Positions 9,001 through 12,000 of a stretch of DNA of 45,334 nucleotides are shown here, piece after piece. Position 1 is the stretch's first letter. The number at the start of each line of letters is the position of its first letter. A program made the position numbers. This DNA comes from a virus (taxonomy: Duplodnaviria > Heunggongvirae > Uroviricota > Caudoviricetes): the IMG/VR virus record IMGVR_UViG_2877251553_000007; one strand, written 5' to 3'.

Positions 9001-12000
9001 CCTCACCGGGTGCCTGCGTCATGACGGAATAAAATTTCTGAATATCTTCACATTTTCACACACTGACTGTGGCGCTTATAATTTCGCTGCGTTAGTGTTT
9101 TTTTGCCCGAGTAACAAAAACAACTCCTTCACATTGATCTTCATTTGTCTGTCCCCGCAGCTCCGCGATCACTGCGGGATTTTTTTATGTTTTATCCCTG
9201 TCGCCCGATAACCACGACCTTTCCGCCCCGCCTTCATCACGGGTGCTGATGTCCTGGGATATACGGCGGGAGCCAACCAGCATTTCCCCGTAAGGCACCG
9301 GCATCGGGTTCCCCTGGGCAATCATGTTATCCAGCGAGGAAAAGTACGTGTTCTGTCTGCCGTTATCCGTTGCGCGGTAATCCGGTGTTTTTGCCTTCGG
9401 GGCCAGCATCTGGGCCACACCGCCCAGAATCATGCTGGCTCCAAGTGAAAACAGCATCGTGGTGGCAGAAAAACCACCGGCTGCCAGGGCTGAACCCCAT
9501 AACGCCATTGATGCCCCGGCAGTGAAGAAAGAGCCCACGATGGCTGCCGCCCCCAACACAATCTGCAGTCCACCCTTTCCGGCCCCGGCCAGTCGCGGCA
9601 CAATGTGGATGACCGTTCCCTCACCCAGCTGTTCGTGAAGACGGGCATACACCGCCTCCGGTGCCGTGTCATCACCGGCAATACGTATCTGGTACCAGCC
9701 TTCGTTCATCTGACGGCGAAAGCCCGGCATCTGCATCGACAGGGCGCGAATGGCTTCCGCTGCCGAGTTCACATACAGGCTGAGGCGGCGGCCAAATCGT
9801 TGCAAATCCCCGTGAAGGCAGATGCGTGCCAGTGGCGGTGACGCCAGACAGAATGCGTTCGTCGTTGCCATTTTTCGGAATACCTCTCCCGTTTACTCAG
9901 TTGTTCAGGCAGATGGTGAAGCAGCTCACCGTTGCCGCAGTAAATGGTGGCATGGTTCGGTACCGAAGCACCAAAGCAGCACAGCAGAATATCGCCCGGC
10001 TGTGCAGAGGACAGGGGCACCCGGTAAAAGCCGGTGACCGCCATATTGTCCAGGTACAGGTTCTGGCCGTTGCGCCACCAGTCATCCTCGCGATGAAAAT
10101 CCGGCATATCAATTCCCGCCAGATGGTATGCATCCCGGAACAGCGTGTAACAGTCCGTCACCCCGTGCTCAAAGCGCCGTCCTGTCAGATGTGGCACACA
10201 GCGGAATTTATGAATTTCCCCCCGGCAGACCAGCCACCAGGGCAGTGCGCTTTTTATCTGCAGCCGCCGGTCAGCCTCGCTCAGCCAGGGCAGCTCACCG
10301 GGATGACTGTGGACCAGTGCCACAATCTCCCCCTGCATCTCTGCCCGCAGCCAGTCTTCCGGTGCGATACGAAAATACGCCTCCGGCTCTGCAGAAATAT
10401 TCACACAAGGGATATACCACTCCCCCTCCGGCGTGCTTATCACGAAGCCGCACGACTCCGCAGGCGCACACCGCCGGGCATGCGCCAGAATCGCTGATTC
10501 AGTCTGTGTCATAAACCGGGATTTACTGCGAAAGTTTATTAATGGAAAGGAAACCGCCAAAATTGCCGACATTCCTGCGCAGTTCACACCCGCGCATGCA
10601 CTTGCTGCATCTGTCCTTACGGATATCCGTGGTGGGTTTATCGAACTCATCCGCCACAGCCCCGCCCGTGTAACCACACTCATCAGAGCGGTAGGTCCAC
10701 ATACAGGTGTTCGCCAGCATGATACGACCGGGAAACAGCGCCCCGTCCGTCTCGGTCGGTGTAGCCAGCACAAACGAGGCCGTCATGGCTGTCAGCTGCG
10801 ACATCTGCTCCACCACCCAGCGGTCACTCAGCTCCTGCTCCGGGTCCGCCTCCGGATTGCCCGCAACGAAATTCACCGCATCCAGAAAACGGGCATACAC
10901 CCGGCGGCGGACCACCGTGGCCCCCACCAGACTCTGCAGGTCTTCCGCCATCCCGGTGACCAGACCGAACAGATTGGACACCGTCAGCGACGGTCTGGCA
11001 CTGCTGCCCCGGCCGTTCATCTCAAAGCCGCTGCCGTCAATCGGATATGCCTCATACTTACGCCCCTGCCAGGTGACCGGCTCCCCTTTTTCATTCGGCT
11101 CATTACAGAAAAAATACCGCTCACCGCCCTGTACCGTCAGGTCGATTTCCCAGAGTACCACCCGCGGTGACTGCTCTGATTTAACCGACTCGCTCAGACT
11201 TTCTTCGCGAATATCCTGCATCAGTTCACCACCTGCTCAATCGTACAACTGAAATCACTGTACCTGGCGTTATCTGTGACGCTCCACTCCCGGCATACCA
11301 CCCTCACCGTCCGGTTATGTTTCGGCGGTCGCCACAAAAAGGCACGGTAACCACCATGCCACGATAAAAACTCTTCCAGCCATCGCCGGGTCGCCTCATC
11401 CGTCACCCGGAACACCGCCTGAAACGTCTTCAGTCGGGCATTAAGTCCCGTCGGGCGGCGCTGTTCATAACCGTCACCAAACCGTACCCTCGCCACCGAC
11501 GGTTTCTCACCACCTGCATCCCTTCACGCGGGACCAGATGCAGCGTTTTTATCTCAGCCACTCAGCATTCCTCCGTCACGTCGCATGGACAGCATCACCG
11601 CCTGCACCCGCTGGTCAATCAGTTGCACAAGGCTGCCCGCAGCTTCCGGCCCTATCTGGCCATTAGTCCCGTCATTCTGAATGGCGATATGGTAGACCGG
11701 GGAATACACCAGACCTGCACTGCCGTTCATACTGCCCACCGCTCGCACACCCAGCGAGCCATCCGCCGCCCGGGTCAGGGGCATAATGGCTTCAGGACCG
11801 GCCTCCCCATCAGTCCCGCCCCTTTTGCAAAGGCAAAGTACGTGGGCGTATCCACAATACTGTTGCTGTACGCACTCAGGTTTGCCGAGGTATACACACC
11901 GCCTTTTGCATTGGCCACCGCACCGCCCAGCCAGCTACCAATACTGCCGATAAATCCTCCCGCTCCGGACATACTGTTTGCCGCCGTCTTGATCCCGTTG

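What the first reader, a model, noticed from the sequence alone, without database searches (positions are those of the whole stretch)
9055..9195. Candidate prophage small RNA in an insert between tail genes I and J
In lambda, I and J abut. Here about 230 bp separate them and contain, on the strand opposite the tail operon, a near-consensus sigma70 promoter (TTCACA-16-TATAAT) followed about 60 nt later by a strong hairpin plus T7 run, with no ORF. The predicted about 100-nt transcript carries a CA-rich stretch (AACAAAAACAAC) of the kind that could pair with G/U-rich sRNA seeds such as GcvB R1. This is the architecture of a stand-alone sRNA moron and resembles the prophage anti-sRNA class reported in EHEC, but I cannot confirm identity from sequence alone.
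Basis: partly seen in the sequence, partly recalled or inferred. Interest (0 to 1): 0.6.

Follow-up and report, generated by a model that had tools for sequence, protein, structure and literature searches.

The report
Known prophage small RNA PasB
The stretch between tail genes I and J encodes PasB, an Hfq-dependent small RNA already found by experiment in enteropathogenic E. coli (with relatives in EHEC), so the prediction of a small RNA is right, but it is not new and there is no support for it being a GcvB decoy.

Summary
A 233-bp I-J spacer (8952-9184) carries, opposite the tail operon, a near-consensus promoter, a 7-bp GC hairpin, a T7 run and no credible ORF.

It is the published sRNA PasB. 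Window 8952-9225 is identical to E. coli E2348/69, where PasB (83 nt) maps to window 9104-9186 (+), and the published Northern probe matches 9159-9181 exactly. PasB is strongly Hfq-dependent.

About 78%-identical copies sit in the I-J spacers of Sakai prophages Sp15, Sp14 and Sp11. These are EcOnc22/23/24 (~85 nt on Northern, destabilised without Hfq). None of the papers I read states this link.

It is not AgvB or AsxR: the sequence and the locus differ, and Rfam gives no hit.

The GcvB-decoy idea fails on four counts:
- RIL-seq lists no partner annotated as an sRNA.
- Predicted GcvB R1 pairing is no better than shuffles.
- The CA-rich stretch is not conserved.
- What is conserved there is an (ARN)n run, typical of Hfq distal-face binding.

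Most likely PasB is a trans-acting, Hfq-dependent base-pairing sRNA that uses its C/U-rich region (9119-9153).

Two points stay open. The published 5' end (~9104) lies 15 nt downstream of the start the TATAAT box predicts. An invariant CRP-like site sits 60.5-61.5 bp upstream of that end.

The parts
9104..9186 (+). PasB small RNA, 83 nt, coordinates as published for the identical E2348/69 sequence
   Evidence: PMC8550237 Table S6: NC_011601.1 minus strand 1466343->1466261. Mapped through the 100% identical match. The published probe matches 9159-9181 exactly.
9153..9186 (+). Rho-independent terminator: 7-bp stem CCCGCAG/CTGCGGG, 11-12 nt loop, U7 tail. The tail overlaps the stop codon of gene I by 2 nt.
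   Evidence: The 3' arm plus U tract is 99% conserved in 14 distinct variants. Table S5 lists a longest U tract of 7.
9110..9124 (+). (ARN)5 run AGU AAC AAA AAC AAC, a likely Hfq distal-face binding module.
   Evidence: ARN runs of 3-7 triplets occur at this place in 10 of 11 distinct variants although the letters differ. They are rare in shuffles.
9119..9153 (+). Single-stranded C/U-rich region, the likely target-pairing (seed) region. It includes the anti-Shine-Dalgarno-like CUCCUUCAC (9124-9132), GAUCUUC (9136-9142) and UGUCUGUC (9146-9153).
   Evidence: Unpaired in the MFE fold. TCC and ATCTT are invariant. Short-duplex profiles of six RIL-seq targets are lowest at PasB nt 16-34 and beat background. 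Cofolds. The top partner pairs with nt 35-50.
9055..9082 (+). It predicts a start near 9089 and a 98-nt RNA.
   Evidence: The -10 box is kept as TATAAT, AATAAT or TATCAT. The -35 box is lost in Sakai and three other variants.
9093..9098 (+). P2 candidate -10 box TAGTGT. It is TAnnnT in all 16 variants and lies 6-7 nt upstream of the published 5' end.
   Evidence: Alignment A2. Published 5' end at 9104. RIL-seq reads with PasB as first RNA reach only window 9103.
9031..9055 (+). Most conserved block of the whole spacer, AAAAnTTCTGAAnnTCTTCACATTT. It contains a CRP-like core TCTGA-N6-TCACA (9037-9052, centre 9044.5).
   Evidence: 96% mean conservation. It is the only 9-of-10 CRP-core match in the window, with 1.5 expected by chance.
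8984..9017 (-). Hairpin plus U-rich tract (UUGUUUUUGUG) on the tail-operon strand, just upstream of the J ribosome-binding site. It is the ancestral I-J junction element and not part of the PasB insert.
   Evidence: Variants show G.U wobbles that pair only in the - strand RNA, plus one compensatory change. Lambda has an analogous sense-strand hairpin in its 60-bp spacer.
9185..9871 (-). Tail assembly gene I. In this window its 3' end is shifted by a 1-nt homopolymer deletion at 9226.
5478..8951 (-). Tail tip gene J, frameshifted in this window

Best explanation
The locus is the gene for PasB, a prophage-borne sRNA of about 83 nt that is stabilised by Hfq. A cassette of about 160 bp (promoter, RNA, intrinsic terminator; roughly 9028-9186) is inserted between the stop codon of tail gene I and the ancestral hairpin in front of J. 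It is transcribed against the late operon, so it can be made in a lysogen while the tail genes are silent.

The RNA has three parts:
- a 5' (ARN)5 run, which would bind the distal face of Hfq;
- an unstructured C/U-rich stretch (CUCCUUCAC...GAUCUUC...UGUCUGUC), which would pair with purine-rich GAAGGAG / GAAGAU sites in target RNAs, including ribosome-binding sites;
- a terminator hairpin with U7, which would bind the proximal face of Hfq.

It acts in trans on core, virulence (ler, perB, bfpB, bfpI, map) and prophage transcripts.

Shown, by published work on an identical sequence: the RNA exists, its size, its Hfq dependence, its higher level in static LB than in DMEM, and its RIL-seq partners.

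Inferred here: the seed region, the role of the ARN module, the regulatory outcome (probably repression by RBS occlusion or mRNA decay), and the promoter used.
For: Identity:
- 8952-9184 is 100% identical to E2348/69, and 9150-9225 is identical.
- PasB coordinates, length, probe and flanking genes come from PMC8550237 Table S6. The probe matches exactly at 9159-9181.

Hfq dependence and partners:
- log2 fold change in delta-hfq is -6.8 (activating) and -2.4 (non-activating).
- PasB is the second RNA in 99-100% of chimeras. It has 37 partners, 30 of them CDS or 5'UTR.

Family:
- EcOnc22/23/24 lie in the I-J spacers of Sp15, Sp14 and Sp11 on the anti-operon strand. They run at ~85 nt on Northern and are destabilised in delta-hfq.
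- The cassette is always between I and J in 16 variants.

Seed:
- The region is unpaired and has conserved cores.
- Six targets give best short duplexes of -13.3 to -17.2 kcal/mol, against a background of -11.1 +/- 2.3.
- ler carries GAAGAU...UGUGAAGGA, complementary to PasB UCCUUCACA...AUCUUC.
- The PP9 target site covers the AAGGAG-AUG of the next gene.

ARN module.
Against: - No regulation of any target has been shown. RIL-seq reports proximity on Hfq, not outcome.
- My seed analysis uses only six targets plus three prophage partners. The background was phage DNA, and purine-rich Hfq-binding sites in mRNAs could inflate complementarity to any C/U-rich RNA.
- The most abundant partner (774 fragments) pairs best with nt 35-50, a segment not conserved in the EHEC variants, so there may be more than one seed.
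- The window's strain is not E2348/69 (best 8-kb match is 97%), and expression there is untested.
Confidence: 0.8

Rival explanations
1. GcvB decoy: the CA-rich 5' stretch pairs with the G/U-rich R1 seed of GcvB and titrates it, as AgvB does.
For: AACAAAAACAAC (9113-9124) is C/A-rich and unpaired in the 83-nt RNA. AgvB shows that prophage decoys of GcvB exist.
Against: - PasB has no CACAACA consensus.
- Its duplex with R1 is -15.0 kcal/mol, and 35% of shuffles are as good. AgvB gives -22.3, with 2% of shuffles.
- RIL-seq lists 0 partners annotated as sRNAs for PasB, while GcvB-SroC gave 945 chimeric fragments in the same data.
- The stretch changes to AAAAAUAAC or AAGAAUAAU in other variants; only the ARN periodicity is kept.
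Confidence: 0.04
2. Cis-antisense regulator of the tail operon: PasB, fully complementary to the I-J spacer of the late mRNA, forms a duplex during lytic growth. The effect would come from RNase III cleavage or transcriptional interference, and it would adjust J expression or uncouple I from J.
For: The cassette is always antisense and always at the I-J junction in all 16 variants. Its terminator overlaps the I stop codon. Perfect complementarity follows from the layout.
Against: - Published data show many trans partners and Hfq dependence in lysogens, where the late operon is silent.
- No I-J mRNA chimera appears in the parts of Table S3 that I could read.
- J has its own ribosome-binding site about 150 nt away from the PasB-complementary part.
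- This role could coexist with the trans role.
Confidence: 0.12
3. PasB is mainly one half of an RNA-RNA pair between prophages. Its dominant partner is an unannotated + strand RNA upstream of the holin gene in co-resident lambdoid prophages (PP2 and PP5). One of the two sponges or regulates the other.
For: - 774 of about 1820 non-activating chimeric fragments join PasB to NC_011601 743482-743611 (+), and a second partner is the homologous PP5 region.
- That region lies between the nanS-like esterase and a class II holin, and it has its own terminator-like hairpins.
- A shared site UCUGACAGACAGUGACGG pairs with PasB nt 35-50.
Against: - The predicted duplex is modest (-15.5 kcal/mol).
- The pairing segment of PasB is not conserved in EHEC variants.
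- The window itself lacks this target site.
- Chimera abundance also reflects how abundant the partner is.
Confidence: 0.2

Closest known systems
PasB (E2348CN_0006) of EPEC E2348/69 prophage PP6; Pearl Mizrahi et al. 2021, Sci Adv (PMC8550237); Zhu, Shabalina and Storz 2026 preprint (10.64898/2026.05.13.724894)
   Same: The sequence is identical over the whole RNA, its promoter region and its terminator. The position (between I and J) and the strand are the same.
   Different: Nothing in the RNA itself. The host strain differs: the flanking 8 kb is only 94-97% identical to any complete RefSeq E. coli genome, and I and J carry frameshifts here.
EcOnc22 / EcOnc23 / EcOnc24 of EHEC O157:H7 Sakai prophages Sp15, Sp14, Sp11; Tree et al. 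2014 (PMC4104026)
   Same: Same I-J spacer, same strand relative to the tail operon, and same architecture. The upstream block, the -10 boxes, TCC, AATCTTC and the terminator arm are shared. All are Hfq-bound and Hfq-stabilised, at about 85 nt.
   Different: Identity is about 78%. The 5' part is 7 nt shorter, reads AAAAAUAAC instead of AACAAAAACAAC, and the segment before the terminator differs. None of the three papers I read (PMC4104026, PMC8550237, the 2026 preprint) states the PasB-EcOnc22 link; the preprint never mentions EcOnc.
AgvB / AsxR anti-sRNAs (Rfam RF02702 / RF02703)
   Same: Prophage-encoded, Hfq-binding, short, with ARN motifs near the 5' end.
   Different: Unrelated sequence and a different locus (downstream of PR', next to the lysis genes). 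They are 51-60 nt long. Their targets are sRNAs (GcvB, FnrS), whereas PasB's recorded partners are mRNAs and intergenic RNAs.
Class II Hfq-dependent sRNAs such as ChiX, MgrR and CyaR (comparison from general knowledge)
   Same: An ARN run plus a U-rich terminator, which suggests binding to both the distal and proximal faces of Hfq.
   Different: No sequence relationship. Hfq face usage by PasB has not been tested.

Membership tests
PasB | Sequence identity to the E2348/69 PasB RNA (NC_011601.1 1466343-1466261, minus strand) | tested here: met
   100% over 8952-9184 and over 9150-9225. The published probe matches 9159-9181 exactly.
PasB | Intergenic location between tail genes I and J of a lambdoid prophage, antisense to them | tested here: met
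   The same holds in 16 variants.
PasB | Hfq-dependent accumulation and recovery as the second RNA in Hfq chimeras | not testable with these tools
   Published for the identical sequence: log2 fold change -6.8 / -2.4 in delta-hfq, and fraction as second RNA 1.0 / 0.99. Not measured in the source strain.
EcOnc22/23/24 | Anti-operon strand transcript in the I-J spacer, homologous in sequence | tested here: met
   About 78% identity with a shared layout. 23 nt of the EcOnc22/23/24 probe match the + strand of all three Sakai spacers. The window differs from that probe, so it is a variant and not the same allele.
AgvB/AsxR anti-sRNA | Conserved ~42-nt 3' module GTATCTCATGC..TTGCCCGAACCC.. | tested here: not met
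   No match with up to 3 mismatches anywhere in the window. No Rfam hit to RF02702 or RF02703.
AgvB/AsxR anti-sRNA | Location in the moron site downstream of PR', in a convergent sRNA pair next to the lysis genes | tested here: not met
   The locus is in the tail operon between I and J. The family location comes from PMC4104026.
AgvB/AsxR anti-sRNA | 5' region that matches the target consensus of a core sRNA seed (CACAACA for GcvB R1) and pairs with it | tested here: not met
   PasB has no CACAACA. Its R1 duplex is no better than 35% of shuffles. RIL-seq lists 0 partners annotated as sRNAs.
CRP-activated class I promoter | TGTGA-N6-TCACA site centred near -61.5 from the transcription start, with a weak -35 box | tested here: inconclusive
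   TCTGA-N6-TCACA (9 of 10) is centred at 9044.5. That is -60.5 / -61.5 from a start at 9105 / 9106, and the site is invariant in 16 variants. A single 9-of-10 match is expected by chance (1.5 per window). The true start site and CRP dependence are unknown.

The most novel reading that the evidence does not exclude
PasB is switched on by cAMP-CRP through the invariant TCTGA-N6-TCACA site, acting as a class I activator of a weak downstream promoter (-10 TAGTGT, start near 9105). Through its C/U-rich region it links carbon status to two things: leader RNAs upstream of the holin genes of co-resident lambdoid prophages, and virulence regulators (ler, perB, bfp). It would be a tail-operon-embedded sRNA that mediates cross-talk between prophages.
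Probability: 0.12. Interest if true: 0.6.

Novelty: already known. Interest (0 to 1): 0.27.

Why it matters
As a discovery it does not matter much. The RNA was found by Hfq crosslinking in EHEC in 2014, named PasB in EPEC in 2021, and surveyed across genomes in 2026.

It still has no known function, although it is present in a third of complete E. coli genomes (1808 of 5426, up to 10 copies per genome). Its RIL-seq partners include the LEE master regulator ler, perB and bfp genes.

The useful by-products here are concrete handles for experiments:
- PasB and EcOnc22/23/24 are one family, so EHEC and EPEC data can be pooled.
- A candidate seed and a conserved ARN module are defined.
- An invariant CRP-like operator would explain why PasB is higher in LB than in glucose-containing DMEM.
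- There is a mismatch between the obvious consensus promoter and the observed 5' end.
- The dominant partner is an RNA upstream of prophage holin genes.

Tried and rejected
- Rfam, at gathering and at permissive thresholds: only chance-level hits at the locus (Ref84, Hrs1, Trp_leader; E 0.5-2).
- AgvB/AsxR module search in the window: none.
- PasA, PasC and PasD probe sequences in the window: none.
- Old versus new Sakai coordinates: AgvB1 showed an offset of about +139. I therefore did not rely on the Table S2 coordinates and used the probe sequence instead. The 33-mer as stored in the PDF text does not match ungapped, probably because two letters were lost in text extraction. Its 23-nt part matches exactly.
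- Unconstrained RNAduplex of PasB against 200-300-nt targets gave meaningless long-loop structures. I replaced it with short-window scans and cofolding.
- Phrase searches for 'gcvB pasB' in the supplement found nothing, but they may not cross tab characters. The count of 0 annotated-sRNA partners in Table S5 is the evidence I used.
- Scan of one genome per species with the invariant 18-base block: mostly chance hits in unrelated phyla. Only E. albertii and a few tiny contigs, probably contaminants, carry the promoter and terminator together.
- A promoter on the - strand for a second sRNA ending at the 8994-9017 hairpin: none found. Lambda has the same kind of hairpin, so I read it as ancestral.
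- A small ORF inside PasB: no AUG or GUG, and an anti-SD rather than an SD sequence.
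Full report
**1. What is in the sequence**

The window is a lambdoid prophage whose tail operon runs on the - strand.
- Gene I is the 228-aa ORF 9185-9871 (-).
- J starts at 8951 (-), so the spacer is 8952-9184, 233 bp.
- In phage lambda the I-J spacer is 60 bp, so about 170 bp are extra here.

On the + strand the simple scan finds two things:
- TTCACA-16-TATAAT at 9055-9082, 11 of 12 matches.
- A terminator-like hairpin followed by T7 (stem 9153-9159 / 9172-9178, T run 9180-9186).

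AACAAAAACAAC is at 9113-9124. The RNA contains no AUG or GUG. The consensus matches on their own are not above chance: 2 promoter-like sites against 1.1 expected, and 3 terminator-like sites against 2.4 expected in 2.5 kb.

**2. Identity**

- The spacer is 100% identical to E. coli O127:H6 E2348/69, NC_011601.1 1466263-1466495. Identity continues to 9225.
- In that genome the flanking genes are the tail assembly protein and gpJ.
- Pearl Mizrahi et al. 2021 (PMC8550237, Table S6) list PasB (E2348CN_0006) on the minus strand at 1466343->1466261. It is 83 nt, in prophage PP6, between E2348C_1436 and E2348C_1437, with Northern probe AATCCCGCAGTGATCGCGGAGCT.
- Through the identical alignment this maps to window 9104-9186 (+). 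The reverse complement of the probe is found once in the window, at 9159-9181.

The same paper reports:
- A strong drop in delta-hfq (log2 fold change -6.79 and -2.39).
- A higher level in static LB than in DMEM.
- A longest U tract of 7.
- 37 RIL-seq partners: 0 annotated sRNAs, 30 CDS or 5'UTR, and 4 3'UTR or IGR.
- PasB as the second RNA in 99-100% of chimeras.

A 2026 preprint by Zhu, Shabalina and Storz surveys PasB.
- It finds 1,158 hits.
- It finds PasB embedded in phage structural operons.
- It describes PasB as the least diverse of the Pas sRNAs and suggests it is the oldest.
- It states that the function is not elucidated.
- It proposes a seed just upstream of the terminator.

Rfam 15 has no family for it.

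**3. Link to EHEC**

Tree et al. 2014 (PMC4104026, Table S2) list EcOnc22 (Sp15), EcOnc23 (Sp14) and EcOnc24 (Sp11) on the + strand. They give a ~85-nt Northern band that is destabilised in delta-hfq.
- In the current Sakai record, all three positions fall inside I-J spacers whose tail genes are on the - strand.
- The paper's coordinates are offset by about 139 nt from the current record, so I used the probe instead. [quoted passage not shown]
- These spacers align with the window at about 78% identity and have the same layout.

PasB and EcOnc22/23/24 are therefore one family.
- Table S6 of the EPEC paper gives EHEC homologues for PasA and PasD but none for PasB.
- The 2026 preprint never mentions EcOnc.
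- A 2021 review lists EcOnc22 with targets unknown.

**4. Not AgvB or AsxR, and not a GcvB decoy**

- AgvB and AsxR are 51-60 nt, share a conserved 3' module, and lie downstream of PR'. That module is absent from the window.
- PasB lacks CACAACA.
- Its best duplex with GcvB R1 (sequence taken from E2348/69) is -15.0 kcal/mol, and 35% of dinucleotide shuffles match or beat it. AgvB gives -22.3 kcal/mol, with 2% of shuffles.
- RIL-seq recorded no PasB partner annotated as an sRNA, although GcvB-SroC chimeras were abundant.
- The CA-rich stretch is not conserved. Other variants read AAAAAUAAC, AAGAAUAAU or AAUAAAAACAAA.
- What is conserved is a run of 3-7 A-R-N triplets, in 10 of 11 distinct variants and rare in shuffles. 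From established knowledge of Hfq, this is the signature of distal-face binding.

**5. Anatomy and conservation**

I aligned 16 spacers (73-100% identity) from E. coli chromosomes and from phages (PhiR12_2, PhiR5_1, JLK-2012, an Stx2c phage). All lie between I and J.

Conservation by segment:

| Segment | Window coordinates | Mean conservation |
|---|---|---|
| Upstream block AAAAnTTCTGAAnnTCTTCACATTT | 9031-9055 | 0.96 |
| -10 box TATAAT | 9077-9082 | 0.94 |
| Terminator 3' arm plus U tract | 9172-9186 | 0.99 |
| ACTCCTTC | 9121-9128 | 0.81 |
| GATCTTC | 9136-9142 | 0.85 |
| ARN region | 9099-9120 | 0.68 |
| Segment before the terminator | 9143-9152 | 0.51 |

A more sensitive search finds the promoter-plus-RNA cassette in 1808 of 5426 complete E. 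coli genomes, at 5496 places and up to 10 per genome. Outside E. coli I found it only in E. albertii and in tiny contigs of unrelated genera, which are probably contaminants.

**6. Which promoter?**

- The published 5' end is 9104.
- RIL-seq reads in which PasB is the first RNA reach only the equivalent of 9103.
- A second -10-like hexamer, TAGTGT (9093-9098), keeps the TAnnnT pattern in all 16 variants and lies 6-7 nt upstream of that end. It has no usable -35 box.
- The invariant upstream block contains TCTGA-N6-TCACA (9037-9052), a 9-of-10 CRP core. It is the only one in the window, with 1.5 expected by chance.
- Its centre, 9044.5, is 60.5-61.5 bp upstream of a start at 9105-9106. That is the class I activation position, from established knowledge of CRP promoters such as lac P1.
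- It is 44.5 bp upstream of the P1 start, which is not a standard position.
- PasB is higher in LB without glucose than in DMEM, which fits CRP activation.

Alternatively, the block is an A/T-rich UP-like element of P1 and the RNA is trimmed at its 5' end. I cannot decide between these readings.

**7. How it probably works**

The 83-nt RNA folds with only the terminator as a stable element. Nucleotides 24-50 are unpaired in the MFE fold.

Six RIL-seq targets from the activating condition were tested: ler, ftsZ, galE, bfpB, bfpI and perB (coordinates, sequences).
- Short-window duplex profiles are lowest at PasB nt 16-34, AACAACUCCUUCACAUUGA.
- The six best energies (-13.3 to -17.2 kcal/mol) all lie in the upper tail of 150 random 240-nt fragments (mean -11.1, sd 2.3).
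- In ler, GAAGAUUUUCUUGUGAAGGA faces PasB UCCUUCACAUUGAUCUUC.

In prophage PP9, the site covers the AAGGAG-AUG of the gene following E2348C_2648. This fits occlusion of the ribosome-binding site by the anti-SD-like CUCCUU.

The most abundant partner is a + strand RNA at NC_011601 743482-743611, with its PP5 homologue (774 of about 1820 non-activating fragments).
- It lies between a nanS-like esterase gene and a class II holin gene.
- Its best site, UCUGACAGACAGUGACGG, pairs with PasB nt 35-50.
- That RNA has its own terminator-like hairpins and no Rfam family.
- The window itself lacks this site.

All of this is inference from complementarity. No regulatory outcome has been measured.

**8. The other hairpin**

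The hairpin at 8994-9017 is terminator-like on the - strand, with a UUGUUUUUGUG tail, and sits just before the J ribosome-binding site.
- Variants carry changes that are G.U wobbles in the - strand RNA but C.A mismatches in the + strand.
- One change is a full compensatory C-G to U-A.
- The hairpin therefore acts in the tail-operon transcript.
- Lambda has an analogous sense-strand hairpin plus U tract in its 60-bp spacer.

The PasB cassette (about 9028-9186) is the insert, and this hairpin is ancestral.

**9. Verdict**

The feature is real and correctly spotted, but it is already known as PasB, with EcOnc22/23/24 as family members. The specific functional guess, a GcvB decoy of the AgvB class, is not supported. 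Interest is low to moderate. It rests on the unknown function, the wide distribution, and the leads listed above.

Noticed in passing
window 37578-37781 (-) and 37855-38104 (-): A full-length STnc100 sRNA (Rfam RF02076, 119.8 bits) lies next to three tRNA genes: Arg-tct, Arg-tcg and Met-cat. This arrangement is typical of the Q-to-lysis region of EHEC and EPEC lambdoid prophages. The 2026 preprint relates STnc100 to PasD. PasA, PasC and PasD probe sequences are absent from the window.
   Followed up: partly
window 33479-33595 (+), ORFs 33198-33524 and 33521-34411 (+): An ALIL pseudoknot (RF01497, 116 bits) spans two overlapping + strand ORFs. This is the programmed-frameshift element of an IS3-family insertion sequence sitting inside the prophage.
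   Followed up: no
window 4928, 7006, 8803, 9226, 11511, 11805, 12715: There are single-base indels relative to E2348/69, most of them length changes in homopolymer runs, within otherwise near-identical sequence. They frameshift J (8803 and downstream), the 3' end of I (9226) and other tail genes. They are either homopolymer sequencing errors or early decay of the prophage. The best 8-kb match in complete RefSeq E. coli genomes is only 97%.
   Followed up: partly
window 8984-9017 (-): A terminator-like hairpin plus U tract sits on the tail-operon strand directly upstream of J. Wobble-only and compensatory changes show that it folds in the - strand RNA. Lambda has an equivalent element in its 60-bp I-J spacer. 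Its role (attenuation, or mRNA 3'-end stabilisation in front of J) is unknown.
   Followed up: partly
window 9031-9055 (+): The block AAAAnTTCTGAAnnTCTTCACATTT is the most conserved part of the spacer, invariant in 16 variants. It contains a 9-of-10 CRP core centred 60.5-61.5 bp upstream of the published PasB 5' end.
   Followed up: partly
L011 (E. coli 2012EL-2448, NZ_CP027586.1) 100-468: Two PasB-family genes lie in tandem, each with its own CTGCGGGATTTTTT terminator (locus positions 202-215 and 427-440). No J gene is annotated next to them.
   Followed up: no
L065 783-965 (E2348/69 NC_011601.1 743482-743665, +) and L066 635-773: An unannotated + strand RNA lies upstream of the class II holin gene of prophages PP2 and PP5 and overlaps the PasA promoter. 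It is by far the most frequent RIL-seq partner of PasB (774 fragments). It has two terminator-like hairpins and no Rfam family.
   Followed up: partly
L034 (Parendozoicomonas haliclonae, 460-bp contig), L041 (Streptomyces flavalbus, 3.4-kb contig), L026 (Asaia platycodi, 546-bp contig): Very short contigs in assemblies of unrelated genera carry the PasB-family promoter block. L034 and L041 also carry the terminator. L034 has the Sakai-type allele. These are most likely contamination with E. coli prophage DNA.
   Followed up: no
L009 and L010 (E. coli E118 and MCJCHV-1): In these variants the ancestral hairpin upstream of the PasB cassette is replaced by about 130 bp of unrelated sequence, giving a 343-bp I-J spacer. 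The cassette itself begins at the same left boundary (ATAAAAATTCTGAA).
   Followed up: no
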